Notes under the pieces: model-generated
Told to the model about the DNA's origin: nothing
Seen by the model: the letters and a program-made list of their open reading frames with translations, nothing else
The model's database searches: none
DNA from: Cetorhinus maximus
Taxonomy: Eukaryota
Assembly (NCBI RefSeq): GCF_964194155.1
Contig: NC_135901.1
Coordinates: forward strand, 37,634,001-37,698,000
Direction of reading: 5' to 3'
DNA length: 64,000 nucleotides
Translations under genes and position numbers: made by a program
Shown: in pieces, positions 4,353 to 64,000 of the stretch
Position numbering within the stretch: the stretch's first letter is position 1
How the letters are laid out: each line of letters begins with the position of its first letter

Positions 4353-4490
4353 CAGTTCTGATGAAAGGTTACAGATCTGAAATGAAAACGATGTTTCTCT
4401 CTCCACAGGCGCCACCAGATCTGCTGAGAATTCCAGCACTTTCTGTTTTTATTTCAGATAGCCAGCATCTGCAGTATTTTGCTTCTCTTT
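4352..4490 (+). mobile_element. Short Penelope-derived terminal element with degenerate hammerhead motif
   Basis: CAGTTCTGATGAAAGGTTACAGATCTGAAA followed by the family 3' end (CTGCTGAG...CCAGCA...TTTCAGA...GCATCTGCAGTATTTT). Paralog at 24340-24466. Confidence 0.75.
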
Positions 4491-5850: not shown

Positions 5851-5874
5851 GGAGGAGAGAATGTTGTGAATTTC

Positions 5875-6691
5875 AAGTGAAGCAGCATTTCATTTGCACT
5901 TCCCTCAATTTAGTCTACTGCATTCGCTGCTCCCAGTGCGGTCTCCTCTACATTGGAGAGACCAAACGCAGGCTGGGTGACCACTTTGTGGAACACCTTC
6001 GGTCTGTCCACAAGCATAACCATGACCTCCCTGTCGCTTGCTATTTCAACACACCACCCTGCTCTCAATCCCGTCCTTGGCCTGCTGCAATGTTCCAGTG
6101 AAGCTCAACGCTAACTGGAGGAACAGCACCTCATCTTCCGACTAGGCACTTTACAGCCTTCCGGACTTAACATTGAGTTCAACAACTTTAGATCGTGAAC
6201 TCTCTCCTCCATTCCCACCCCCTTTCCGATCCCGTTTTCCAATAATTTATAATAATTTAAAAAATATATTTTTCTTTTCCCACCTATTGCCGTTATTTTT
6301 AAATTTATTTCCATCCATTGTTTTATCTCTACCTTTTGGCCTCTTTAGATCCCATCCCACCACCCCACCCCCACTAGGGCCATCTGTCACTTGCTCGTCC
6401 TGCTTTCTACCCTCAATGTCCCCATTAGCACATTCGTTAGCTGATATCACTACCATCAACACCCCTTTGTTCTTTTGTCCATGACATCTTTGGCAATCTC
6501 TTCTTTGCCTCCACCCATCTCTGGCCCTCTATCCAGCTCTACCTGTCCCACCCCCCTCAACCAGCATATATTTCACCTCATTCTATATTTCCTTAGTTAT
6601 GATGAAGAGTCATACGGACTCGATACATTAACCCTATTCCTTTCCGCAGATGCTGTCAGACCTGCTGAGTATTTACAGCTATTTTTGTTTT
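5875..6691 (+). mobile_element. 5'-truncated Penelope-like element (GIY-YIG C-terminus, 3' UTR, degenerate hammerhead)
   Basis: NLVYCIRCSQCGLLYIGETKRRLGDHFVEH is a GIY-YIG motif. 13-bp TSD TGTTGTGAATTTC at 5862-5874 and 6692-6704. Absent from the paralogous arm near 21045. Confidence 0.92.
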
Positions 6692-9960: not shown

Positions 9961-11000
9961 TGAAATAAAAGTAAAATTCTGCAGATGCTGGAAATCTAAA
10001 TAAAAACAGAAAATGCTGGAATAACTCAGCAGGTCTGTTAGCATCTCTGGAGAGACAAACAGAGTTATCATTTTGAGTCTTGTGCGGTCTTGACAGGGTG
10101 GATGTGGAGAGAATGTTTTCTCTTGTAGGAGAATCTAGAACCAGGGGTCACTGTTTAAAAATGAGGGGTCACCCATTTAAGACAGAGATGAGAATTTGTT
10201 TTTCTATCAGAGGGTCGTGAGTCTTTGGAATTCTCTTACTCAAAAGGTGTTGGAAGCAGAGTTTTTGGATATTTTTAAGGTAGAGGTAGATAGATTCTTG
10301 ATTAACAAGGGGGTGAAAGGTTATTGGGTGTAGGCAGGAGTGTGGGGTTGAGATTAGAATCGGATCAGCCATGATCTTATTAAATGGTGGAACAGGCTCG
10401 AGGGGCCGAGTGGCCTATTCCTGCTCCTAATTCATCATATGTTCGTTTGACTTCTCAAGAGCTGAAGAGGTCGAAATGTGATGGAATTTATGCTGCTGAA
10501 AATGGAGGCGGTGGGGGGATGGGGAGGGTTACTGGAGCAAAACAGAAGGTCAGGGATTGGTTGGAGGTCAGGTGTGAGTAAATGACAAAGATGTCCTGGA
10601 CAGAACACAAAGGGAGTGATAATGATACTATTAAAGACTAACGCAGGTGTTAATAGCAGCATATAGATCAACCATGTCTGAAAGCAAGATAGCAGAATGT
10701 GTTAGTAGCAGAACAAAGGTCAGCATTTTCTGAAAGAAAAACATAAGAACAAGGTATAGACTGGCATTTGGCAGGAGGAGGTGGGTGGAAAGAAAATCAG
10801 CATGGAGGACAGAGTTCATGGTCTGAAATTGTTGAACTCAGTGTTAAGTCCAGAACACTGTTAGGTGCCTAATTGAAAGATGAGCTCCCTTTCCTCCAGT
10901 TTGTGTTTAGCTTCACTGGAACATCGTAGCTGGCTGAGGCTGAAGGCTTGCTCTCATGCTCACATTGCTGTCCTCAGCCTGCTACACTGTCCCAGTAAAC
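9960..11000. mobile_element. Nested Penelope 3' region (-) interrupted by a CR1 3' fragment (+, ~10085-10445)
   Basis: CAGATGCTGGAAATCT...CTCAGCAGGTCTG Penelope end; AAATTGTTGAACTCA...GTGCCTA matches the reverse of the GIY-YIG tail; CR1 3' UTR lies between them. Confidence 0.7.
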
Positions 11001-12979: not shown

Positions 12980-13660
12980 AATAACTACAGCCCAGCAGTA
13001 GAACCGCGCAGGTGCAGGAAAGCCCCCCACCCCCACCACACACCCCTCGCCTCCCCTGATGGCCAGCTGCATGCCCGGAGCATGTGTGGTTCAGCTTCAG
13101 GAAGATGAACGGTGGCGATCGCAGACTCAGTAACAGTGAATATATAATTATAAACACAAAATACTGCGGATGCTGGAAATGTGAAATATGTACAGTAATA
13201 CAGGCTCGAAACGTTAACTCTGTTTCTATCTCCACAGATGCTGCCAGACCTGCTGAGTTTTTCCAGAATTTCGTGCTTTCATATTATGTTATATGTTAGG
13301 AATAATTTTAAACGATTGAGGAGCTGCAATGGCGGGGGTTTTACCCAGCATTCCCCGCGATGCAAAATGTCCCCTATCCCCACAACATGGGGGACATGTG
13401 CGCGTGCGCAGTGCTCCGAGTGATGACGATGGTGAGACGCTTGTTTGTCGCTCGGCAGCCGGTAACAGGCAGGAGGAGGGGGACCCGGCGGGTGGGCGGA
13501 AAAGGTTCATTAACACCCATAAACCCCAATAAAATGCTGCAGCTCCCAAGCTTTTACCCGCGAGCAGGCCCAGGTTAGCGGCCGCCATCTTGTTCCAGCG
13601 GGGATCAGGGAGAATGTGCGGCCATCTTGGTGACGCAACAGAGTGGGCGGGGATTCATGG
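12980..13660. promoter_or_regulatory. CpG-island-like, possibly bidirectional promoter
   Basis: ACTACAGCCCAGCA and TTACCCAGCATTCC (ZNF143/THAP11-type), TGCGCGTGCGCA (NRF1-type), two GGCC(GCC)ATCTT (YY1-type) and a GGGCGGG box, upstream of the zinc-finger exon at 14.1 kb. Confidence 0.6.
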
Positions 13661-14199
13661 TCCCAGTGACCAGGGGAGAAATGATTGATTCAGCAAAATA
13701 CTGCGGATGCTGGAAACCTGACACAAAATCAAAAAATGCTGGAAAATTCATCAGGTCTGACAGCATCTATGGAGAGAAAGACAGAGTTAATGTTTAGAGT
13801 CCGTATGACTCTTCTTCAGAGAAATGATTGATTCTTTGATTTTATTCTCACTCTTCACACAGGGGCTGGAGAACTGAACCCAGCTACAGTAGAGAGAGGG
13901 AACAATCTCGGAGTAGAGGAAATAAATGGTTGAGATGGTGTGATGTGTTTGGATTTCAGCACAGGAGAAGCAACTGTTTGTGGGACAGCTTTGGGGGAGC
14001 AAAGGAGGAGAAATGTTGGATGAAAATTAGAATTGTTTGTTCAGAATGTATAGCCTGTGATGACTTTTGTAAACACATTTTACAGGGTAATTTGAAGGAG
14101 AGGATTTACAGACGGGAAACTCAAGCCAAACATGACATCCACATCTGACAGTCACTCGATTCATCAGGACCTGAATCAGCCTTTGAATGTGTAAGGAGA

Positions 14200-24097: not shown

Positions 24098-25008
24098 GTT
24101 AACAGGTGGGAAAACTAAATAAACCCCTTTGCTCATGTAGAGTATCTGAATGGGCTTGCACCAGTGAGACTGTGTTGCTGTGTTTGTAACTGGAATGACA
24201 GAGTGAATCCCTTTCCATTTCCAGCTCGTGAATGATCTGTTTACAGTGTGAGTTTACCTGTACGGTTTCAGCTCAGACATGGATCTCAACCCCTTCTGCT
24301 AATGGGTTCCACATTCTTAGCACTAAACAGTTAAAGAAAAGCAAAATATTGCAGATGCTGGATATCTGAAAGAAAAACTGAAAATGCTGGAATTCTCAGC
24401 AGATCTAGTAGCTTCTGTGGAGAGAGAAAGTTTTCATTTCAGGTCTGTAACCTTTCATGAGAACTGCACTGCATCTGAAATGTTAATTATGCCTCTCAAT
24501 CCAAAGATGCTGCCAGATGTGGTCAGGGAACTCAAGATGAAAAAGAAAATCCCATTTGAGGAATGGAATCCGAGGAAAATGAAGGGTGAACTGTCCGACT
24601 GACCAGAGACAGTCAAGGCACCTTTCCCTTCTTTAAGATGCTGGAACATTGACTCTGATGTTATCTGTGAAATTAACTGATCTGAGGCATTGAAAGGATT
24701 CTCGTTACTGCACATCAGGAATTCAAAACTAATATCAGCTTCGGGACGATCAGAATACTTGGTAACAGACATGACAGCGAAAGGCTCGAAGGGAGACAGG
24801 CACCGTTGAAGGAGAGCTGGTTCCCGGTGACATGGATGTGTCTGCATTGGGTGAAATCAGACTGTTTCCATGTATCCACAATGAATGTCCCAAAGATTAT
24901 TTTGGAAGAGTAAATCTAACAGAACGATTGACATTTGGGTAGTGTCAGTTTGAAGATTTGGCTTACTCACACCCTGGTTGGGATACCTTACAGTTGGAAC
25001 TTGTCTCA

Positions 25009-28480: not shown

Positions 28481-29639
28481 CACCAACAGAGAGTTGTCAG
28501 GATCTGGAACACCCTACCTGGAAAGGTGCTGGAACCTGATTCTATCAGGAATTTTAGAAGGGAGTTGACAAGAATTTGAGATTGAGGAACTTACAGGGTA
28601 ACAAACAGGAAGAGGGTGTGTGGGACTAAATACGACTGCTCTTTCAAAGAGACAGCACAAGCACAAAGGGTTGAATGGCCTCCTTGTGTGCTGTAAGTTT
28701 CTATGATTCGAGGAGTTGGCCATTTAGCCCCTCGAGCCTGTCCTACCATTAGCTGATGGTATAAGGATTAGATTGAAGGTTATGGACAATATAGACAGGA
28801 CAAATGCAGGAAGAACTTTTTACACAGTGAGTCGTAATAACCCAGAACTCACTGCCTAGGAGGCAAATGGAAGCAGACATGAGCAGTGATTTGAAATGGA
28901 GATTGAATGTCGAGGGAAATAAACTTGCAGGGCCTTGGGGATACAGGAGGGGAATGGGACAGACTGGATTGCTCTAGAGAGCTTGCAGAACTCAATAAGC
29001 TGAATGGCTTCTTTCTGTGCTCTAATTACTCGGACTCATTTGTTTACTGTCTCCTCATAATTTAAATTTTGGAGTGCAGGTATCATTCAGGTAAATCTGC
29101 ACTGCACTCCCACTAAGTCCAATACAGTCTATCCTTCCTAAGGTGTGCTGCCCAGAATTGAACACAGTATTCCTGTTCTGATCAAAGGTCATGTTGAACT
29201 GAAACGCTAACTCTGTTTCTCGCCACAGATGCTGCCTGACCTGCTGAGCATTTCCAGCATTTTTTTATTTTTATTGCAGTAGCTCAGGTGCGGTCTAACC
29301 TGGATTTTGAATATCTCGGTGCTTTTTCAGTCACATCGATACCTGAAACTTTTTCTGACAAACAGAACAGACAAACCTTTTTCCTTCCACAGTCAAAGTC
29401 CAGTAAGATTCAGGTTCTGATGAATCCAGTTACTCCGTCAGATGTTAATGTGAAGTTTGGATGGAATTTCCCGCCTGCAAATCCTTCCCATTGAAAATCC
29501 TGTAAAAGGATTATTTTAAAAATCCATCCCTGTCAGTCCAGGATAGAAATTGAGAGACAAACATTTCTCTGGGTTTGAGTTAGTGTGTGTAAATCCTCCC
29601 CTTCTAAGCCCCTGTAAAAGGAGTTTCCAAACACTCGGT

Positions 29640-40519: not shown

Positions 40520-42620
40520 TCATCACAGAATTTTAACAGCACAGAAGGAGGCCATTTGGCCCATCGTGTCTGCACCGGCTCTCCAAATGAACATTCTGAC
40601 CTAGTGCCATTGCTCTGCCTTTTCCCCGTACCACTGCACATTGTTTCTATTCAGATAGTCACCTAATGCCCTCTTGAATGCCTTGATTGAACCTGCCTCC
40701 ACCACACTACCAGGGAGTGTATTCCAGATGCGAACCACTCGTTTTGTGAAAAAGTTTTTTCTCGCTTCACATTTGTTTCTGTTGCAAATCACTTTACATC
40801 TGTCCTCTCGTTCTTGATTCTTATAAGAGCAGGAATGGCTTTTCCCTATCTACTCTGTCCAGTCCCCTCATAATTTTGAACATCTCTATCAAATCTCCTC
40901 TTCGCCGCCTTCTCTCCAAGGAGAACAGTCCCAACCTCTCCAATCTATCCTCATTGCTGAAGTTTCTAGTCCCTGGAACCACTCTTGTTAACCTCTTCTG
41001 CACTCTCTCCAATATGTCCACATCCTTTCTGTAATGTGATGCCCAGAACTGTACACAATATTCCAGCTGAGGTCTAATGAGTGACTTATATAAATTAAAT
41101 ATAACCTCCTTTCTCTTGTACTCTATGCCCCTATTAATAAAGCCCAGGATGCTATATGCTTTATTAACAATTCTCACCACCTTCAATGATCCAGGCACGT
41201 ATACACCCAGGCCTTTCTGCTCCTGCACCCCCTTTAAAATTTCACCCCTAATTTTATATTATCTGTCCATTTTCTTCCTACCAAAATGCATCACCTCACA
41301 CTTCTCTGCATTGAACTTCTTCTGTCACCTATTTGCCCACTCCACCAACTTGTTTATGTCCTTTTGAAGTTCTACACTGTCCTCCTTTGCAGTTTACAAC
41401 ACTTCCAAGCTTTGTACCATCCGCAAACTTTGAAATTGTACCCTGTACACCAAGATCTAGATCATTAATATATATCAGGAAAAGCAAGGTCCCAATACTG
41501 GCCCCTGGGGAACTCCACTACAAACCTTCCTCCAGCCTGAAAAATATCCATTGACCATTACTCTCTACTTCCTATTTTACAGCCAATTTTGTATCCATGT
41601 TGCCAATGTCTCTTTTATTCCTTGAGCAATAACTTTTCTCACAAGTCTGTTGTGTGGCACTGTATCAATGCCTTTTGAAAGTCCATGTACATCACATCAA
41701 CAGCATTATCCTCATTGACCTTTTCTGTTACCTCTTCAAAAAACTCCAGCAAGTTGGTTAAACACGATTTCCCCTTTAGAAATCCATGCTGGATCTTCCT
41801 TATCAACCCATATTTTACCATGTGAGTACTAATTCTATCCTGAATAATTGTTTCTAGAATCTTGCCCACCATTGAAGTTAAACTAAGATAAAAAACAAAA
41901 AACTGTGGATGCTGGAAATCTGAAACAAAAACAGAAAATGCTGGAAAAAGTCAGCAGGTCTGACAGCATCTGTGGAGAGAGAAACAGTGTTGGTGTTTCA
42001 TGTCCGTATGACTCTCCTTCAGAACTGAAGTTAAACTAACTGGTCTGTAATTGCTGGGCTTATCCTCACAACCTTTTTTGAACAAGGACATAATGTTTGC
42101 AATTCTCCAGTCCTCTGGCACCTCCCCTGAGTCTCGAGAAGACTGAAAAAATTATGGCCAGTCCCCCTGCAAGTTCTACTCTCTCTTCCTTCAATAACTT
42201 TGGATGCATCTCATCCAGTCCCGGTGCCTTGTCAACTTTAAGTACCGACAGTCTATTCAACACTTCCTCCTTATCAATTTTGAACCCTCCTAGTGGCAGA
42301 GTTTCATCATCTGTCATTTTGGCCTGGGTAGCATCTACCTCCTTGGTAAAGACGGATGCAATGTGTTCATTTAATACCTCAGCAATGGCCCCTTCGTCCA
42401 TGTGTAAATTCCCTTATAGGTGCCTAATCGGCCCTGCTCCTCCCTTTACTGCCCTTTTTCTATTTATATGCCTATAGAAGACTTTGGGAATCCCAAATTG
42501 ATGTTGGCTGCCAGTATTTTCTCATAATTCCCCTTTGTTTCTCTAATATGCTTTTTCACCTCCCCCCTGAACCTTCTTTATTCCTCTTGGTTGTATTTTC
42601 TACCTGACACCTTTCATAAA
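40520..42620 (-). mobile_element. CR1 LINE 3' half
   Basis: KAPGLDEMHPKLLKE, QHGFLKGKSCLTNLLEFFEEVT, RPQLEYCVQFWASHYRKD. Confidence 0.92.
41887..42025 (-). mobile_element. 139-bp Penelope-terminal mini-element with 14-bp TSD
   Basis: TGAAGTTAAACTAA at 41873-41886 and 42026-42039. The element runs from a degenerate hammerhead to a T-rich tail. Confidence 0.88.
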
Positions 42621-45560: not shown

Positions 45561-46074
45561 GTTCATTAGGGTCTGTTTCTGCTGAGTTAATAAACTCCAG
45601 CCCAGTTATAGGGGTAAATATTCTGGATAAACAAATCATCTTTCTGTTCAACACACAGTGTGTCGAGTCTTTTTAATATCTCAAAGACAAGTTAGTTCCT
45701 TTTGAAGAGCTCTCTCCCCTGTCTCCTCCATCCTCACCTCCAACAACAAGTGTGAGGAGCTCATGGAGCTTCTTTGTCACTAAGATTGAGACAATCTGAT
45801 CAGCTGCCTCTGCTGCTTCCCTCCCTCCCACTAGCCCAACGGGCCAAACTGTCTCTAAAGTTCCCCCTGAGCTGGTCACCCAACTTCCCCATGTTCGCTG
45901 ACATTGTTAACGGTTCTTTCTCTCCAGGTAGTGTCTGTCTCTCCTTAAAATCTGCCATCATCAGCCCCTCCTCAAAAACAAACCTTTGACCCCCACCGTT
46001 CTTGCAAACTACTGCCCCATCTCCAAACTCCGGCTCCTCTCCAGATTGAATATGCTGTCACATCCAAAATACTG

Positions 46075-46975
46075 AGATTCTCAGTGTGAACAGGGTGGGA
46101 TGTGTTTGGAGACAGGATGTCCCAGTTCTCCAGTTTGGGTTGTTTTCGTTGGAGCAGAGTAGACTGAGGGGCGACCTGATCGAGGTGTACAAGATTATGA
46201 GGGGCGTGGATAGGGAGCAACTGTTCCCCTTAGTCATAAGGGGACATAAGTTCAAGGTGAGGGGCTCAAGGTTTAGGGGGGATGTGAGGAAAAACGTTTT
46301 TACCCAGAGGGTGGTGACAGTTTGGAATGTGCTGCCGGGGAGGGTGGTGGAGGCGGGTTGCCTCACATCCTTTAAAAAGTACCTGGATGAGCACTTGGCA
46401 CATCATAACATTCAAGGCTATGGACCAAGTGTTCGTAAATGGGATTAGGGAGGTCAGGTGTTTCTCATGTGTCAGTGCAGACTTGATGGGCCGAAGGGCC
46501 TCTTCTGCACTGTGTGATTCTGTGATTCCACCCTTGGAATTCTCAGTGTGAACAGGGTGGTATGTGTTTGGAGACAGGATGTCCCAGTTCTCCACCCTGG
46601 GATTCTCAGTGTGAACAGGGTGGGATGTGTTTGGAGACAGGATGTCCCAGTTCTCCACCCTGGGATTCTCAGTGTGAACAGGGTAGAATGTGTTTGGAGA
46701 CAGGATGTCCCAGTTCCCCACCCTGGGATTCTCAGTGTGAACAGGGTGGGATGTGTTTGGAGACAGGATGTCCAAGTTCTCCACCCTGGGATTCTCAGTG
46801 TGAACAGGGTGGGATGTGTTTGGAGACAGGATGTCCCAGTTACCCACCCTGGGATTCTCCATGTGAACAAAGTGAGATCTATTTGGAGACAGGATGACCC
46901 AGTTCTCCACCTTGGGAATCTCATTATGAACAGGTTGGGATGTATTTGGAGACAGGATGTCCCAGATTTCCACCT
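46075..46975. repeat. 63-bp minisatellite (8 units) with a CR1 3' end inserted in the first unit (~46132-46527)
   Basis: Unit GGATTCTCAGTGTGAACAGGGTGGGATGTGTTTGGAGACAGGATGTCCCAGTTCTCCACCCTG at a 63-bp period from 46548 to 46926. Confidence 0.93.
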
Positions 46976-48829
46976 TTAATGGGGAGATATACAGGATCAA
47001 TTTCTACCTTACTGAGTGAGAAATGTCATTGTCCTGGACACCCCCTGTCCCTCAGTATCTGTATCCGGGGGACAGGCTGATGGGTTTACTCTGTATCTAA
47101 TCCATGCTGCGTTTTACTGGAGAGTGTTTGATTCTGACAATGAGATGATGACGATGAGATAAACCCATCAGCTTCCCCCCTGGACACAGATCCTGAAGGA
47201 CAAGGAGTGTCTATAATATTTTTGACCATGTCCTTGATCCAGTTTTGAACTCCTTGCTCACATCTCCTCTCATCCTGCTTAGTTCTAATGAAAAGACCCC
47301 CAGTTTCTCCAGTCTTTCCTCATGGGAAAGAGAAGTTGGAACTAAGTTAGAAACTCACAGCAGACAGGTCACCATTAGAAAACATTTCATTCCACAGTCA
47401 ATTGTTTTCACCTGTAATACACTGTCTGCAAGTTTAAAAACAAAATACTGCAGATGCTGGAAATCTGAAACAAGTCACTCAATTCTCAGACCATAACTGA
47501 CCTCATTCCTTCTGGAGGAGAATCCTGTCATCATAGAACTGAATTTGGATTTGTTCAGCCTGAGCATGGGCCTCACTCACATCCTTGCATATTGTCTTCA
47601 AATCAGAAACACCCCTGGTTCCTGATGGTGCTCTGCTCCTTATTCAGGCTGCTGGTAGATTCTCTCTCTGCTTCTACAAGCTGCTGAGGACACAGACTGA
47701 GCCCCCAGACTGACATTTACTGCAGAAATATGGTGAACTTTCCCCTCTCAATCCATTTCCATTATCACTTGATACACATGGCCTGTCTTTAGAAATAAAT
47801 GGAAATTATTTATCTTTAAATTTAAACCATTTCTTTGATCCGATAAGTATATGGATACTTTGAAACCATCTCTTGGTTACCAGTGGCCTTCAACTTTCTC
47901 TGATCTGGGGGAAATTATTAATAATATAAACCCTCACAGACAGTCCGTCTCCTCAAGAGACAGTTACCGAGACCTCCATTGTTTAACTTTTAACACCTCC
48001 TATTATGGCTTCACGGACATAATATGGGACCTCACTTTGATCTGAAATTACCCCAGAACTGTCTACCTTCCCTTCAGGCCAGGTGCTCTTTCATTTATCC
48101 TCCATTTAAAAATTACAATTTCCAAACCAAAAATAAGCTTATGCACATTTGTAACATAAGTCAGTCATTTTTATCAAAAAACAGCAGAGATCCTGGTGCT
48201 GAACCCTGGGAACTGCACTGTAAATCTCACTTCTTTCCAAAGGAAATGCCATTCACCCTCACTCTCTGATTGCTATCACTTACATATCTTTGTATCCATG
48301 CTACTGCTGATGTTTTGATCAGATGGGCGTCAAGTTCACGAACAGACTTAATAAATGGTACTTGATCCAATGTCTGCAAACACAGCACAAACTGCAATGG
48401 CCTCAACCCCCTTCCCTGTTAAACTTGTCAAAAAACTCCATCAGGTTATTTAACAAGTCCTGAGACTTCTTTCCCTCAGCATTTTATCAGAAGCTTATTA
48501 AAAAACAAATGAGGTTTGGAACACAAATCAGTGTCCCTTGGGTAGTAGGAACGGCCCATTTCACATTCCATTTACACACTTACCTACCTTCACCTATTTG
48601 GATCAGGGTCACATTGAGAGGGACATACAACACTTTGGTCATTCTTGTCTCTCTTCACTGGCAGGAAAATCTCTGTGTGAGTTAATCCCTGAGATGCGGA
48701 TAAAATCTGTCCTGGCCGCTCTGTTCCAGGGTTCAGATCTCCTAGACATGAAACAGAAGATTCCTTTACAGCTGTGTTTTGAGTCAAGAAGAACAACGGT
48801 GAATGCTGGAAAAGTGTTGTCAAATCAGA

Positions 48830-51331
48830 AACAAAAGTACCTGGAAAAGCTCAGCAGGTCTGACAGCATCTGCGGAGAGGAAACAGTTAACGTTTCGAGT
48901 CCGAATGACTCTTCATCAGAACTAAGGAAAAATGGAAAAGAGGTGAAATATAAGCTGGTTTGGGGGGTCAGTGGGGGGGGGACCAAAGGTAGAGCTGGGT
49001 AAAGAGCCAGTGATAGGTGGAGATAACCAAAAGATGACATAGACAAAAGGACAAAGAGGTGTTGATGGTGGTGATATTAGCTAAGAAATGTGCTAATGAT
49101 GACATTAAGGGTAGAAAGCAGGACGAGCAAGGTACAGATAGCCCTAGTGGGGGTGGGGTGGGAGGAAGGGATCGAAATAGGCTAAAAGGTAGAGATAAAA
49201 CAATGGGTGGAAATATATTTAAAAATAATGGAAATAGGTGGGAAAACAAAAACCTATATAAATTATTGGAAAAGCGGGGATCGGAAAGGGGTTGGGGATG
49301 GAGGAGAGAGTTCATGATCTAAAGTTGTTGAACTCAATATTCAGTCCGGAAGGCTGTAAAGTGCCTAGTTGGAAGATGAGGTGCTGTTCCTCCAGTTTGC
49401 GTTGAGCTTCACTGCAACATTGCAGCAGGCCAAGGACGGACATGTGGGCATGAGAGCAGGGTGGTGTGTTGAAATGGCAAGCGACAGGGAGGTCTGGGTC
49501 ATGCTTGCAGACAGACAATAGGTGTTCCGCAAAGCGGTCACCCAGTCTGCGTTTGGTCTCTCCAATGTAGAGGAAACCGCATTGGGAGCAGCAAATGCAG
49601 TAAACTAAATTGAGGGAAGTGCAAGTGAAATGCAGCTTCACTTGAAAGGAATGTTTAGGCCCTTGGACGGGGAGGAGGGGGGAAATAAAGGGGCAAGTGT
49701 TGCACCTTCTGCGGTTGCATGGGAAGGTGCTGTGGGAGGGGGTTGAGTTGTAAGGGGTGATGGAGGAGTGGACCAGGGTGTCCCGGAGGGAACAATCCCT
49801 GCGGAATGCCGCCCTGGGGGTGAAGGGAAGTTGTGTTTGGTGGTGGCATCATGCTGGAGTTGGTGGAAATGGTGGAGGATGATCCTTTGAATGCGGAGGC
49901 TGGTGGGGTGATAAGTGAGGACAAGGGGGACACTATCATGGTTCTGGGAGGGAGACGAAGGTGTGAGGGCGGATGCGCAGGAGATGGGCCGGATACAGTT
50001 GAGGGCCCTGTCAACCACCGTTGGTTCAAAACCTCGGTTAAGGAAGAAGGAAGACATGTCAGAGGAACTGTTTTTGAAAGTGGCATCATATAACAGATGC
50101 GACAGAGGCGAAGGAACTGAGAGAATGGGATGGAGTCCTTACAGGAAGTGGGGTGTGAGGAGCTGTAGTCAAGGTAGCTGTGGGAGTCGGTAGGCTTGTA
50201 ATGAATATTGGTGGACAGTCTATCACCAGAAATTGAGAGAGAGATCAAGGAAGTGTCAGAGATGAACAATGTGAAAATGATGGAGGGGTGGAAATTGGCA
50301 GCAAAATTAATCAATTTTTCCAGGTCCAGATGAGAGCATGAAGCAGCACCGAAGCACTCATCGATGTACTGGAGAAAGAGTTGTGGGAGGGGGCCTGAGT
50401 AGGACTGGAACAAGAAATGTTCCACATACCCCATAAAGAGACAGGCATAACTGGGGCCTATGCGGGTACCCATAGCCACACCCTTTATTTGGAGGAATTG
50501 AGAGGAGTTTAAGGAGAAATTGTTCAGTGAGAGAACGAGTTCAGCCAGACGGAGGAGAGTAGTGGTGGATGGGGATTGTTCGGGCCTCTGTTCGAGAAAG
50601 AAGCGGAGAGCCCTCAGACCATCCTGGAGGGGGATGGAGATGTAGAGGGATTGGACGCCCATGGTGAAGAGGAGGCGGTTAGGGCCAGGGAACTGGAAAT
50701 TGTTGATATTATGTAGGGTGTCAGAGGGATCGCGGATGTAGGTGGGAAAAGTCTGGACAAGGGGAGAGAGAATGGAGTCAAGATAGCAAAAAATGAGTTC
50801 CGTGGGGCAGGAACAGGCTGACACGATCAGTCTGCTGGGACACTCCTGTTTGTGGGTTTTGGGTAGGAGGTAAAAGCGGGCCGTCCAAGGTTGGGAGACC
50901 AAGAGGTTGGAAGCTGTGGAAGGAAGATCTCCAAAGGAGATGAGGTCAGTGACAGTCCTAGAAACAATGGCTTGATGTTCAGTGGTGGGTTCACGGTCCA
51001 GGGGGAGATAGGAGGAAGTGTCTGCGAGTTGACGCTCAGCCTCTGCAAGGTAGAGATCAGTGCACCAGACAACAACAGCACCACCCTTGTCAGCAGGTTT
51101 GGTGACAATGTCAGGGTTGGACCTGAGAGAACGGAGTCCCACCTGTTTCCCCCCCTGCCACCCCCTGAAACCAGCATATATTTCACCTCATTCTATATTT
51201 CCTTAATTTTGATGAAGAGTCATTCGGACTCGAAATGTTAACTGTATTCCTCTCTGCAGATGCTGTCAGACCTGCTGAGTTTTTCCAGGCATTTTTGTTT
51301 AGGATTTCCAGCATCCGCAGTTTTTTTGCTT
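48830..51331 (-). mobile_element. Penelope-like element (RT plus GIY-YIG), 5'-truncated, with inverted terminal copy and 13-bp TSD
   Basis: KPADKGGAVVVW, FYLLPKTHK, QIKGVAMGT, YIDE, YKPTDSHSYL; VYCICCSQCGFLYIGETKRRL. The 3' end (48830-48990) is repeated inverted at 51140-51331. TSD TTGTCAAATCAGA at 48817-48829 and 51332-51344. Confidence 0.95.
48885..48923 (-). ncRNA. Minimal type I hammerhead ribozyme motif with intact core
   Basis: AGUU-CUGAUGA-A-GAGUC(AUUCG)GACUC-GAAA-CG-UU-AACU: stem I AGUU/AACU, 5-bp stem II, palindromic ACGU helix III. Confidence 0.8.
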
Positions 51332-51657
51332 TTGTCAAATCAGACATTGGTGTAAAACTGTGATCTGTTCCTGACTGAAGGTGAAACGGCAGGTTTAAGT
51401 TTCCAGTCTGAAAATAACTGTATTAAGTATTCTGTGAATTAATATTTCTGAATGAAAGAAAGATTTAATGTGTGTGTGTGTGACAGTCCTCTGTCTATCT
51501 TTTAAGGCAGTTGTTAACTCTGACAAAGCCTAATGCCTGAAATGTTAAGGTTTGAGCAGCGGATGATTTGCAGTCGGGAAACTCAGACCAAACATCATGT
51601 CAGGATCTGATGGAGTCACCCAGCTTAAAGTATCCTGAATATCATTGGATTTTGAAC

Positions 51658-52697
51658 ATGGAAGGACAAAGCACCGTTCACACTGTGGAGAAACTGTGGA
51701 AACGTAGGGATTGTGGGAAAGGATTCAATTACCTGTCTGCACTGGAAACTCATCGAAGTAGCCACACTGGGGAGAGACCATTCACCTGCTCCGAGTGTGG
51801 GAAGGGATTCACTACCTCATCCCATCTGCTGATACACCAGCGAGTTCACACTGACAAGAGACCTTTTAAATGCCCAGACTGTGGGAAGTGTTATAAACGT
51901 TCAGGGAATCTGATATCCCATCAACGTGTTCACACTGATGAGAGACCGTTCAGGTGCTCTCATTATGGGACTGGGTTCAGGTGGTCATCTCACCTCACTG
52001 ACCACCAGCGAGTTCACAGTGGGGAGAGGCCGTTCACCTGCTCTGAGTGTGGGAAGGGATTCACTCAGTTATCCCTCCTGCTGAGACACCAGCACGTTCA
52101 CAGTGGGGAGAGACCGTTCACCTGCCCCGAGTGAGGGAAGGGATTCACTGATTCATCCAGCCTCCTGAGACACCAGCAAGTTCACATTGACGAGAGGCCT
52201 TTCAAATGCCCAGACTGCGGGAAGTGTTTTAAAAGTTCCAGGAACCTGATGTACCATCAACGTGTTCACACTGACGAGAGACCGTTCAGATGCTCTCACT
52301 GTGGGACTGGGTTCAGGCAATCATCTCATCTCACTGGACACTGGCGACTTCACACTGAGGAGAGGCCATTCATCTGTTCTGAGTGTGGGAAGGGTTTCAC
52401 TACCTCATCCACCCTGCTGATACACCAGCGAGTTCACACAGACAAGAGACCTTTTAAATGCCCAGACTGTGGGAAGTGCTATATAAGTTCGGGAATCTGA
52501 TGCTCCATCAACGTGTTCACACTGACGAGAGACCGTTCAGGTGCTCTCAGTGTGGGACTGGGTTCAGGTGGTCATCTCATCTCACTGACCACCAGCGAGT
52601 TCACACTGTGGAGAGACCGTTCACCAGCTCCGAGTGTGGGAAGGGATTCACTCGGTCAGTCATCCCACCTGCTGAGACATCAGCGAGTTCACAAGTA
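51658..52697 (+). pseudogene. C2H2 zinc-finger gene with internal stop (52132-52134) and frameshifts, ~12 fingers
   Basis: ATG at 51658 (MEGQSTVH); TGT>TGA change; three repeats of the KCPDC/RCSHC finger pair. Confidence 0.85.
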
Positions 52698-53529
52698 ACT
52701 ACAGTGATTGGGTTTTGCTGTTAATCACATCCAGGACTGAACCATGTTCATTGAGGTCTCTTTCTGCTGATGTCAGTAAACTCTAGGTCAGTTAGAGGGG
52801 TTTATTTTCTGGATAAAAGTCAAATAAATCAGCTTTATGTGAAAGACTGTGTGTCGTCTTTTTCATGTCTCTAATACAAGTTAGTTCCTTTTGAAGGGGT
52901 CTCCCTCTCCCCGTCTCCTCCAACCTCACCTCCAACAACAAGTGTGAGGAGCTCATGGAGCCTCTTTATCACTAAGATTGAGACAATTTGATCAGCTGCT
53001 TCCCTCCCTTCCATTAGCCCACCGGGACAATCTGTCCCTATAATTTCCTCTTGTCTGAGCCCGGAACTCACATTTTTCTCTAGTTTCTCTCCCATTTCCC
53101 CTCACATCCTCTCAGTGTTCAGCTTGTCCAAAGAAAAAAAAAATACTGATCGCCCAACTTCACCATGTCAGCCAATATTGTTAACGGTTCTCTCTCTGTT
53201 CTGATACTGTCCCTCTTCACATTGAGGACACCCTCCATCATGTGTGGCACTACCACCGTGCTAAATGGGATAGATTTCCAACACATGTAGCAATTCAAGA
53301 CTGGGCAATGATGAGGTGATGTGGGCCATCAGCTGCAGCAGAATTGTACCCATCCGCAATCTGTAACCTCATCACTCGGCATTCCTCCACTCTGCCTTTG
53401 CCACCGAGCCAGGGGATCAACCCTGGTTCAACGAAGAGTGCAGGAGAGTATGCCAGGAGCAGCACCAGTCATGTCTAAAAATGAGGTGTCAACCTGGTGA
53501 AACTGCAACACAAGATTACGGTCCCTGCA

Positions 53530-55295
53530 AGTTTGAAACAAGTTACTAGTTTCTTGCAAACTGTGTGTATGAGAGCAGGGAGGATAAGCGAACTGACCTT
53601 GGCACCATGATACAGGGAGACATTCAATTGGGGAATGTGAAATAGGAAGTTAGTGGTGGTAGGGGACAGTATAATTAGGGGGGTAGATCCTGTTCACTGC
53701 AGCTGTGAGCAGGAGTGCCAAAGGTTGTGTTGCCTGCCCGGTGCCAGGGTTAAGGACATCTCATGGTTGGAGAGGAACTTGGAGTGGGAGAGGAGGGATC
53801 CAGTTGTCGTCATCCACGTTGGTACCAACGACATTGATAGGACTAGAAAGGAGGTTCTGCTGAAAGAATTTGAACAGTTAGGAGCTAAATTAAAAAGCAG
53901 AACCTCCAAGGTAATAATTTCGGTAATACTATCTGAGCCACAGGCAAACTGGCAAAGAGTAAATAAAGGCAAGGGGTTAAATGCATAGCTCAAAGATTGG
54001 TGTGGGAGGAATGGGTTTCAGTTCATGGGGCACTGGCACCAGAACTGGGGTAGAAGGGAGCTCTTCCGGTGGGGCAGGCTCACTTGAACCATGCTGGGAC
54101 CAGTGTCCTGGTGAATTTAATAACTAGGTCTGTAGAGAGGGCTTTAAATTCGATGGTGGGGGGTGGGGTAGTGCGGAGGGTTCTGGAGAGGGCGTACATA
54201 GGCTAACAAAGCAAAAGGATATGGCAGCATTGCAGGGCAGCTTTTGAGGCATTGATACCAGAGTCTGACAGGAAGGGACAGAGTGTACAAACAGAAAAAA
54301 ACAGCAGCAAGTACAGTCATGAGGGAAAAATGGTAAAAATGCAAAATTAATGGCTCTTAAATGCACATAGTATTCGGAACCAAATAAATGAATTAACGGC
54401 ACAAATAGAGGTTAATGGGTATGATCTTGTAACAATTATGGAGATGTGGTTACAAAGAGATAAAAGCTGGGAACTAAATATTCATGGGTATGTGACTTTT
54501 CAAAAGGACAGGCAGGAAGGAAAGGATGGTGTGTTAGCTTTGTCAGTATGAGGTGGAATAAATACAATAGCAAGGAATGAGCTTGGATTGGAAGATGCAG
54601 AATCCATATGGGTGGAGGTGAGAAATAACAAGGGGAAGAAGACACTGATGGGAGTAGTTTATAGGCCCCCTAACAGTAGCTACACTGTAGGACAGAGAAT
54701 AAATCAGGAGATAATGAGGGCATGAAAAAAAGGCAATATATTAATCATGGGTGACTTTAATCTTCATGTAGATTGGGACAATCAAATTGGCAGAGGTAGC
54801 TACGAGCAAGAATTTATAGCATGAAATCGGGGCAGTTTTCTAGAATGATACGTTGGATCCAACCAGCAGTCTGGCTATTTTGGATCTGGTAATGTGTAAT
54901 GAGACAGGCTTAATAAATGATCTCAGAGTAAAAGATCCCCTAGGAAACAGTGACCATAACATGGTAGAATTTGACATTCAGTTTGAGAGTGAGAAACTTG
55001 GGTTGGAAACAACTATGCTAAATTTAAATAAGGGTAGTTACAAAGGAATGAGGGCACATTTGGCTGGAGTGGACTGGAAAAGGAGCTTAGCATAAAAGAC
55101 GGTTCATGAACAATGGCAGGCGTTTAAGAAAATAGTTCATGACTCTCTGCTAAGATATATCCCAGTGAGAAAGAAGGATTGTAGGAAGGGACTAAACCAA
55201 CCATGGTTAACCAAGGAAGTTAAGGGTAGTACCAAATTGAAAACAAATTACAATGTGGCAAAGATTAGTGGTAATCCAGAGGAATGGGAAATTTT
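53530..55295 (+). mobile_element. CR1 LINE 5' portion (ORF1 esterase and ORF2 endonuclease), decayed
   Basis: VVGDSIIRG, CCLPGARVKD, VIHVGTND; AILDLVMCNE..PLGNSDHNMVEF. Confidence 0.9.
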
Positions 55296-56810: not shown

Positions 56811-58142
56811 TAAAAGTCACACCAACTCTCCCAATCTTTTTACTGTAAAATTCCTTCATTTTATTGAAAATCTGACTGTTGTGAATCTGAAAATGAGCAC
56901 CATGGGATTTGTGTTAGCGAGTGACTTGTTTTCCATTGTTTTTCCGTCAGGTTTGCAATTCAATTTGTGTTGGATGTTGAAGTGAATCTGATTTCAAAAT
57001 GAGGACATTAAATCCAGGAATTAATTCTGAGGAAAACGGATCACAATGTTTGGAAGGAGGTGCAGCTGAGAAGCGGAAGCTGTGAATGAAGTTATTGATG
57101 ATTGAATGGACAGCATTAGGTACTTGTTTAACATCGTGGCTGTGTGGTTAATTAGATGGTTTTAAAATTCATTGGGGTTTAATCAGGTAAGTTCAAGTCT
57201 TACCGACTGTGATTTACATTATTGCTGATTTCAACCAGGTGTCTACAGAACTATGGGTCAATGGAAGAAAAGACAAACAAAAATCTGTATTTGCTCCGAA
57301 GAAAAGTCGTATGCACTCGAGATGTTAGCTCCGTTTCTTTCTCCACAGGTGCTACAAGACTTGTTGAGTGTTTCCAGCATTTTCTGTTTCTATTTCATAT
57401 TTCCAGAATTCGCAGTATTTAGCTTTTATCCAAAAATTCTCGTGAGTTTTGTCTCAGAGAATGAAGGGTCCTCGGGATCGGGTGGGAAATTGGTGTTGAG
57501 GTTGGAGATCCGCCATAATCTTATTAAGTGACGAAGGAGGCTTGTGGGGCCTTTTATCTACATTCTTGCAGTGCACCTGCTGAACAATATAAGCTTATGA
57601 TAGCTCTGCTTTCTTCACATTGTGAAAATATGAACAATTTCAAAGCTGGACAACGTATACAAGACAGGAAGGAGAGTGTGAGTGTGGATAATCGGCACTG
57701 TGCACATTCCTGTAATCTGTGGCTCAGTTCATAGCACCCTCGCCTTTGAATCAGAGGGTTGTGGGTTCATGTCCCACTCCCGGAAAACCAAGAACTGTGA
57801 TTGTACTCGAAAGAAGTTGCAATCTGTGACTGTTGGTAACTCGAAAGAGTTTCCTGTAATCAGTACCTGGGAGAATCAGGAAGATGAGATCCTGGTGTCT
57901 CTTTACCCTGTTGTCTGCAAACCTATCGCCTTGTGTCTTACATTCCCATGAACTGACAGTGTCTGTATCAAGCAGCTAATTGGCCTGAGAGCTGGAGGCG
58001 AGGCGGGGACAGAGGCAGAAAGAGATGCGACATGAAAGTGCTTTGAATTTGATGTGTGTCAGTGGTGAATGTCTGCCTTGTAAGTTCCACGGAATAAGGG
58101 GTTTTTTTTGTTTGAAAGCAGCAAGATTTTAAATGACTACAG

Positions 58143-63599: not shown

Positions 63600-64000
63600 T
63601 GTAGTCACTTGTCAACTTGAGTTAATGTTTCGAGTCCATGTGACTTTTCTGAAGACGAGTCCATCCGGACTTGAAACGTTAACTTTGTTTCTCTGTTCAC
63701 AGATGCTGCCAGACCTGCTGAATCTTTCTGCACTGTGTTTTTATTTCGGATTTCCAGCATCTGCAGTATTTTCCCTTTATACTTGTGAACTGGTTGGTGT
63801 CTTTACAGTGTGGATGAACAGCCAAATGACTTGCCACACTTGGAACATGAGAACAGCCTTTCCCCACTGTGAATTCACTGGTGTACAGTGAGGTCAGATG
63901 ATTGCCTGAACCCAGACCCACAATAAGAGCACCTTAATGGTCATTTGTCAGTGTGAACACGTTGATGCGACATCAGTTCTCTGAAATATTTCTAGCACTT
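63600..64000 (-). pseudogene. 3' end of a decayed zinc-finger gene with a Penelope mini-element (63618-63780) at its stop codon
   Basis: Degenerate [24 protein letters not shown] fingers. TSD ACTTGT(C/G)AACT at 63607-63617 and 63781-63791; family 3' UTR at 63470-63600. Confidence 0.8.

What the first reader, a model, noticed from the sequence alone, without database searches (positions are those of the whole stretch)
48830..51331. Penelope element with an intact minimal hammerhead ribozyme, inverted terminal copy and TSD
Seen: the minus strand of 48885-48923 reads AGUU CUGAUGA A GAGUC AUUCG GACUC GAAA CG UU AACU. This is a full hammerhead core with an extra A after A9 and a helix III reduced to the palindrome ACGU. 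A mutated second copy sits inverted at ~51205-51245. Known: Penelope-like elements carry minimal type I hammerheads with palindromic helix III that are thought to cleave as dimers, and they often show inverted pseudo-LTRs. Inference: this copy may still self-cleave and would cut any minus-strand transcript running through the zinc-finger cluster.
Basis: partly seen in the sequence, partly recalled or inferred. Interest (0 to 1): 0.7.

Follow-up and report, generated by a model that had tools for sequence, protein, structure and literature searches.

The report
Dead Penelope insertion with hammerhead motif
This is a dead, truncated copy of a very common Penelope-type jumping gene in what is likely a shark; its small hammerhead RNA motif is real but is the family's standard part, decays like the rest of the copy and is likely inert here, so the locus is ordinary.

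Summary
Observation confirmed. 48830-51331 is a head-to-head Penelope-like insertion: a 5'-truncated minus-strand RT/GIY-YIG body plus a 194-bp inverted arm that alone carries the 3' 'tail'. The 13-bp TSD is proven by 18 empty-site paralogues. The minimal hammerhead at 48923-48885 is as described, but it is standard for the family: 407 exact copies and 21,152 core matches genome-wide (controls 0 and 105). The ORF is dead. The insertion was duplicated with zinc-finger genes into 12 copies, across which the hammerheads decay at the background rate (9/78 vs 261/2424 changes per site). Both flanking zinc-finger arrays are plus-strand, so the intact motif is antisense to them. A read-through RNA is predicted to bury it in an arm-arm duplex, and published minimal hammerheads did not cut alone as monomers. 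Stem II covaries between two lineages; stem I does not. Side result: all 57 independent TSD-flanked head-to-head inserts have exactly one tailed arm, which fits priming from both target strands at two RNA start sites. The scan noted this, and core position-6 variants, before on other shark DNA. Verdict: new member of a known kind, low interest.

The parts
48817..48829 (+). Left target-site duplication (13 bp)
   Evidence: single copy in 18 empty-site paralogues
48830..51137 (-). 5'-truncated body of the Penelope-like element; its 3' end lacks the tail
48885..48923 (-). Minimal type I hammerhead motif with canonical core (CUGAUGA, extra A, 5-bp stem II, GAAA, ACGU palindrome, 4-bp stem I); predicted cut 48889/48888
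49312..49848 (-). GIY-YIG endonuclease frame (in frame with homologues from about 49817)
   Evidence: PF01541 E 0.0014, 19.4 bits, below the 22.6 cut-off; 41-45% identity to homologues
49693..49719 (-). C-X4-C-X2-C linker motif (Neptune/Nematis type)
   Evidence: translation, position counted from it; same motif in 5 of 6 homologues printed (X5 in the sixth); diagnostic per PMC8557442
49815..50087 (-). Thumb/linker segment in a different frame (frameshifts near 50090 and 49817)
   Evidence: tblastn
50093..51137 (-). Reverse transcriptase, about 265 N-terminal residues of ~890 missing; catalytic motif A reads MGV and motif C reads YIDE
51138..51331 (+). Inverted short arm (pseudo-LTR), joined head to head with the body
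51205..51243 (+). Mutated hammerhead copy (stem I G>A, C3U, C15.2U)
51300..51331 (+). 3' tail (32 nt) present on this arm only
51332..51344 (+). Right target-site duplication (13 bp)
51549..52724 (+). Neighbouring C2H2 zinc-finger array, broken in this copy: about 2.3 kb including the likely splice acceptor deleted at 51548/51549, stop at 52132-52134, frameshift near 52500

Best explanation
This is a dead, 5'-truncated insertion of a high-copy Neptune-type Penelope-like retrotransposon whose hammerhead is the family's inherited standard motif, decays at the background rate and is likely inert at this locus. The insertion was likely built by two target-primed reverse transcriptions, one from each nicked strand of a 13-bp staggered cut. 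One would have started at the inner RNA start site and copied 2.3 kb; the other would have started about 32 nt further out (giving the tail) and copied 0.19 kb; the two cDNAs were then joined head to head. The insertion was later copied along with a zinc-finger gene block into 12 paralogues. Shown: structure, TSD, dead ORF, copy numbers, paralogues, decay rate, one-tail rule. Inferred: double priming, inertness, clade.
For: TSD with empty sites. RT homologues carry RVT_1 and in part GIY-YIG, 479 hits among 5126 candidates. Truncation, two frameshifts and two catalytic lesions; the motif A lesion is shared by 12 of 12 paralogues. 407 exact and 21,152 core copies. [quoted passage not shown] Each arm is exact in only 6 of 12 paralogues. 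Predicted arm-arm duplex covers the motif in whole-element folds of both strands. Position 6 of the core is A in only 22 of the first 100 of 35,783 matches (hand count), so the family amplified without a canonical core; this agrees with PMC11167929, where hammerhead mutants did not affect insertion. One tailed arm in 57 of 57 independent TSD-flanked inserts vs 27 tail/tail or short/short among 62 neighbour pairs without TSD. The tailed arm is longer in 14, shorter in 17, about equal in 26. The inverted arm here starts in the 3' UTR and does not mirror the RT sequence at the junction, which a simple fold-back would give.
Against: No cleavage or strand-specific RNA data. The minus-arm motif alone has 2 changes vs 4.2 expected (P 0.21): not significant, but power is low. 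The window's minus-arm core is fully canonical, so it could cut in trans or with the family's protein. 27 of 103 arms start within 12 nt of stem I, so a transcript beginning at the motif is plausible and would escape the duplex. 12 of the 57 tail-less arms end short of the usual inner site. The 57 come mostly from loci chosen for one subfamily, and the TSD caller has a 32/1988 false rate. Clade rests on one motif and host range, with no labelled tree.
Confidence: 0.85

Rival explanations
1. One reading: the intact motif still self-cleaves and cuts minus-strand transcripts in the zinc-finger cluster, with a regulatory effect.
For: Core fully canonical. Minus-strand zinc-finger arrays exist elsewhere in the window, the nearest on the right at 63847-63931. 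Family RNA appears abundant in coded runs that are guessed to be RNA, so trans partners might exist.
Against: Flanking arrays are plus-strand. No cis partner. Predicted duplex sequestration. Background decay, with the palindrome or stem I broken in 6 of 12 paralogues. Plus-strand copies that are sense to the arrays are exact in 6 of 11 paralogues whose zinc-finger exon is an open frame of 293-435 aa, so an intact motif is tolerated there. Published monomers inactive.
Confidence: 0.05
2. The motif is latent rather than inert: an outward transcript starting at the pseudo-LTR leader would carry a free hammerhead that is cut slowly as a trans dimer or with the family's protein, removing about 35 nt, with no host function.
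For: 5' ends pile up at stem I (27 of 103 within 12 nt vs 27 in the 288 nt upstream). PLE pseudo-LTRs hold internal promoters (PMC2377424 abstract; PMC6765202 passages). Protein-assisted cleavage shown for the anole element.
Against: The designed dimer scores -11.7 kcal/mol vs -20.4 for the best alternative cofold. In its native context the motif is predicted to fold differently. No reads ended at the cut site in anole RNA-seq. The pile-up is partly biased because focal arms had to contain the whole motif.
Confidence: 0.15
3. The inverted arm arose by self-priming or fold-back on one template (the model in PMC3846280), or by later deletion from a longer partial tandem, rather than by double priming.
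For: Palindromic junctions are common: 26 of 57 inserts have about equal arms. Model proposed in print.
Against: At this junction RT sequence abuts 3' UTR sequence with no mirror symmetry. Either arm can be the longer, and the tail is always single. The anole protein nicks and extends both strands and starts at two sites that bound the tail.
Confidence: 0.2

Closest known systems
Minimal type I hammerheads of metazoan Penelope-like elements (Cervera and de la Pena 2014, PMC4209133; parts 1-2 of 4 read)
   Same: In the pseudo-LTR; extra nucleotide between 9 and 10.1; G10.1-C11.1; palindromic 15.2-16.2; short stem I; thousands of dispersed single copies; pairs on opposite strands.
   Different: Stem II is 5 bp here (7-8 bp in the schistosome families). 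Sharks are not named in the parts read; supplements not read. Related subfamilies here replace A6 by U or C.
EN+ PLE insertions with inverted pseudo-LTR, one-sided tail and TSD (Pen2a_Av, PMC3846280; Fig. 2 legend of PMC8557442; passages read)
   Same: Inverted 5'-truncated copy at the 5' end, 30-40 bp tail on one end, TSD.
   Different: TSD 13 bp here, mode 14 (22 of 57), vs 8-10 bp in the rotifer examples; no direct 5' pseudo-LTR; the papers say the tail is 'often' or 'optionally' at one end, here 57 of 57.
Poseidon of Anolis carolinensis, PAc (Frangieh et al. 2024, PMC11167929; parts 1-2 of 4 read)
   Same: RT plus C-terminal GIY-YIG; hammerhead upstream of a tail bounded by two end points.
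   Different: This family has the C-X4-C-X2-C linker of Neptune/Nematis, which Penelope/Poseidon lacks per PMC8557442; this copy is dead.
Non-LTR retrozymes (bioRxiv 10.64898/2026.07.22.740005; part 1 of 5 and passages read)
   Same: Type I hammerhead derived from a PLE pseudo-LTR; reported in one chondrichthyan.
   Different: Retrozymes are tandem and non-coding; this insert is inverted, has coding remnants and has no same-strand second motif.

Membership tests
EN+ Penelope-like element | PLE-type RT with DKG motif | tested here: met
   PADKGG present; 54-66% identity to RVT_1 homologues; Pfam itself gave no RT hit on this decayed frame
EN+ Penelope-like element | C-terminal GIY-YIG endonuclease | tested here: met
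   PF01541 E 0.0014, below the cut-off; 41-45% identity to the C-termini of full-length homologues
EN+ Penelope-like element | Pseudo-LTR, direct or inverted, with one-sided 30-40 bp tail and TSD | tested here: met
Active (autonomous) PLE copy | Single intact ORF with catalytic residues and a 5' pseudo-LTR in tandem | tested here: not met
   Truncation, two frameshifts, two catalytic lesions
Neptune clade | CX2-5CxxC linker between RT and EN | tested here: met
   CNRRRCNTC; criterion from PMC8557442; shared with Nematis
Neptune clade | Placement in an RT tree with labelled references | not testable with these tools
   No clade-labelled sequences among the hits; Neptune and Poseidon are the vertebrate groups
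Minimal type I hammerhead | Core CUGANGA / GAAA / NUH, nucleotide between 9 and 10.1, palindromic 15.2-16.2 | tested here: met
   Minus arm; plus arm fails at C3 and C15.2
Minimal type I hammerhead | Covariation of stem II | tested here: met
   27 of 30 first genome matches scored (3 of other lengths left out): pair 1 G-C vs A-U, pair 2 A-U vs G-C between two length classes; 5 of 2000 shuffles reach it, but this is one lineage split
Minimal type I hammerhead | Covariation of stem I | tested here: inconclusive
   No compensatory change; pairs mostly invariant; C.A mismatch at pair 2 in 11 of 20 of the longer class; 1121 of 2000 shuffles reach the observed value
Minimal type I hammerhead | Self-cleavage as a dimer or with protein | not testable with these tools
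   Needs an assay; runs were contigs only
Non-LTR retrozyme | Tandem repeats with a hammerhead in consecutive units | tested here: not met
   The two motifs are inverted

The most novel reading that the evidence does not exclude
Penelope-like elements integrate by coordinated double priming: one protein-RNA complex nicks both strands about 14 bp apart and assigns one DNA end to each of the two RNA start sites, never both ends to the same site. This would explain the inverted pseudo-LTR, the one-sided tail and the TSD in one step, and this locus, with its empty-site paralogues, is a clean record of it.
Probability: 0.6. Interest if true: 0.45.

Novelty: new member of a known kind. Interest (0 to 1): 0.22.

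Why it matters
For the locus, little: it is one of tens of thousands of similar remnants, and the zinc-finger array beside it is itself broken. It is useful as a natural control. Twelve co-duplicated copies show that an intact-looking minimal hammerhead persists by recency, not selection, and that a sense-oriented exact copy is tolerated upstream of intact zinc-finger exons. The family-wide one-tail rule is a sharp, testable constraint on how Penelope-like elements integrate, a step still open after the first in vitro study.

Tried and rejected
Rfam scan of 46000-54000 at E<=10: 6 matches, none a hammerhead. PDB sequence search with the RT frame: 0 hits at E<=10. Folding z-scores of the motif were not significant in 4 of 4 stretches. 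Microhomology between target and RNA at the tail-less end: mean 1.28 nt vs 0.64 in shuffles for 47 of 57 mappable inserts, but the TSD caller extends into matching element bases by construction, so I treat it as inconclusive; the 15-bp call for this locus is such an over-extension, as the empty sites give 13. RNA evidence: 23 runs listed, all contigs, RNA-type holders with at most 0.20 of the words; laying 4 runs on the window and 4 on an empty paralogue gave family-wide cover and no usable strand, end or splice information, so whether the site is intron, UTR or intergenic stays open. Selective loss of the sense-strand motif: rejected, it is exact in 6 of 11 other paralogues. Retrozyme: rejected, no tandem. 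The Lunse et al. dimer paper was not held; only its title in a reference list was seen. No supplements were read; they may list shark families or tail statistics.

Full report
Observation. The minus strand of 48923-48885 gives a 4-bp stem I, CUGAUGA, an extra A, a 5-bp stem II, GAAA, the ACGU palindrome and a GUU cut triplet. The plus-strand copy at 51205-51243 has three changes, including C3U and C15.2U. The 13-mer at 48817-48829 and 51332-51344 is the only shared word of 8 nt or more. A search with the left flank returned 40 scored places of 233 candidates; of the 30 fetched, 12 carry the insertion (the window and 11 others) and 18 are empty, with one copy of the 13-mer running into the right flank. 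Rfam does not detect the motif and it folds no better than shuffles.

What it is. The window lies on contig C24 of a 3.99-Gb genome. The best named homologue is from a bamboo shark at 66%, so the host is likely a shark (inference). The body (48830-51137, minus) encodes RT, linker and GIY-YIG. Against full-length homologues of 889-955 aa it lacks about 265-330 N-terminal residues, has frameshifts near 50090 and 49817, and reads MGV and YIDE at the catalytic motifs. A C-X4-C-X2-C linker marks it as Neptune/Nematis type (criterion from PMC8557442 passages); Neptune is likely from host range. The 194-bp plus-strand arm begins at about 51138 in 3' UTR sequence and alone carries a 32-nt tail. The family is very large: 407 exact 39-mers (control 0), 21,152 canonical-core matches (control 105), 35,783 matches when the core is left free (control 0), and 103,901 first-look candidates for the endonuclease, of which 150 were scored. 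The window itself holds about a dozen related ends.

Is the hammerhead kept for a purpose here? The 12 copies of this one insertion differ by 0.2-5.5%; two lie on small contigs and may be alternative haplotypes. Parsimony changes: 9 in 78 hammerhead sites vs 261 in 2424 other element sites, 8.4 expected. Six of the nine are at CpG columns. The minus arm alone has 2 vs 4.2 expected (P 0.21). Each arm is exact in 6 of 12 copies. The motif A lesion is in all 12, so the copy was dead before the duplications. In the 11 other copies a plus-strand zinc-finger frame of 293-435 aa lies 2.5-11 kb downstream, and 6 of them keep an exact sense-oriented hammerhead. In the window that array has lost about 2.3 kb including its likely acceptor and has a stop and a frameshift. 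Whether the site is inside the transcript is unresolved.

Could it cut? Published work says a monomeric minimal hammerhead showed no cleavage and dimers little (PMC4209133, parts 1-2 of 4). The anole PLE hammerhead cut only with the element's protein, single C3 or G8 mutants abolished it, insertion did not need it, and no RNA-seq reads ended at the site (PMC11167929, parts 1-2 of 4). Here the two motifs face opposite ways, so there is no cis dimer. A transcript through both arms is predicted to form a duplex of -233 (minus) or -253 (plus) kcal/mol, and whole-element folds pair the motif with the far arm. The designed dimer (-11.7) loses to an alternative cofold (-20.4). Both flanking arrays are plus-strand. 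The remaining route is a transcript starting at the motif: 27 of 103 arms begin within 12 nt of stem I (partly biased by selection), and PLEs have internal promoters (PMC2377424 abstract). That would need a trans partner or protein and is untested.

Family-level conservation. In the first 30 genome matches (27 scored, 3 of other lengths dropped), stem II pairs 1 and 2 swap G-C/A-U for A-U/G-C between two length classes; this is one lineage split, not many events. Stem I shows no compensatory change and a C.A mismatch in 11 of 20 of one class. In the first 100 matches, position 6 is A in 22, U in 61, C in 12, G in 3 and unreadable in 2 (hand count), while the other core positions are nearly fixed. 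A natural A6C variant is slow (k_obs under 0.1 per min; PMC3088659 passages). The window copy belongs to the canonical minority.

How it was built. Among 137 sequences (98 8-kb loci around exact motifs, 38 earlier loci and the window) there were 123 candidate outward-facing arm pairs; 61 had a TSD (false rate 32 of 1988 in mismatched controls). Four were duplicates of this insertion and were dropped. All 57 remaining have exactly one tailed arm; among the 62 pairs without TSD, 27 were tail/tail or short/short (Fisher P 7e-10). TSD mode is 14 bp (22 of 57) and the tail is 28-42 nt in 35 of 47 mapped. The tailed arm is longer in 14, shorter in 17 and about equal in 26. With the in vitro findings that both strands are nicked and extended and that two start sites bound the tail, the simplest reading is two primings, one per strand and one per start site (inference). 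The shape is known: PMC3846280 and PMC8557442 (passages) describe inverted copies with a tail often on one end, and the former proposes self-priming instead. I did not see the strict one-tail rule stated in the passages read from searches; supplements were not read and most subscription papers are not held. Earlier notes of this scan reached the same reading on other shark DNA and noted the position-6 variants in this genome; I had both leads before those look-ups and they are not independent support.

Verdict. A real, well-formed, dead Neptune-type Penelope insertion with a standard minimal hammerhead: new member of a known kind, interest 0.22. The regulatory inference gets about 0.05. The boldest reading left is coordinated double priming (0.6; interest 0.45 if true).

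Noticed in passing
G000 C24 45.9-63.9 Mb, C241, C254 (L199-L209): The same insertion, with the same TSD and junction, sits in 11 other copies of a zinc-finger gene block, 0.2-5.5% apart; it is a ready marker for ordering duplications in this cluster.
   Followed up: yes
window 51548/51549: About 2.3 kb present in paralogue L208 is missing here, including the likely splice acceptor of the zinc-finger exon; the array also has a stop and a frameshift, so it is likely a pseudogene.
   Followed up: yes
genome-wide: Core position 6 is U or C in 73 of the first 100 family matches while other core positions stay fixed.
   Followed up: partly
L219-L248: An abundant subfamily has AGCU/AACU in stem I, a C.A mismatch, in 11 of 20 copies of the longer class.
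   Followed up: partly
L071-L168: Many 150-260 bp palindromic stubs; 5' ends pile up at the start of hammerhead stem I, a possible RNA start.
   Followed up: partly
window 5871-6690: Second truncated copy of the same family (84% over 842 bp) joined to an inverted arm at 6548-6690 with a damaged hammerhead.
   Followed up: no
window 4358-4382, 9973-10079, 13188-13266, 13695-13818, 24339-24440, 29176-29264, 41897-42024, 47442-47473, 57298-57440, 63647-63772: Older Penelope end fragments, most with decayed hammerheads; 63649-63676 keeps a full core on the plus strand.
   Followed up: partly
window 48600-48829 plus 51345-51440: The target lies in a block repeated across the zinc-finger cluster (233 candidates); in an empty paralogue contig depth falls between L217 5072 and 5111 in 4 of 4 runs, a weak hint of an exon edge.
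   Followed up: partly
window 46266-47003: Tandem repeat with a unit of about 54 bp giving repeated open frames on both strands.
   Followed up: no
window 53641-53988: SGNH/GDSL-like frame (PF13472 E 1.7e-5, below cut-off), likely a LINE ORF1 esterase remnant (label recalled).
   Followed up: no
window 47037-47211: 52-nt inverted repeat (83%) with 71 nt between the arms.
   Followed up: no
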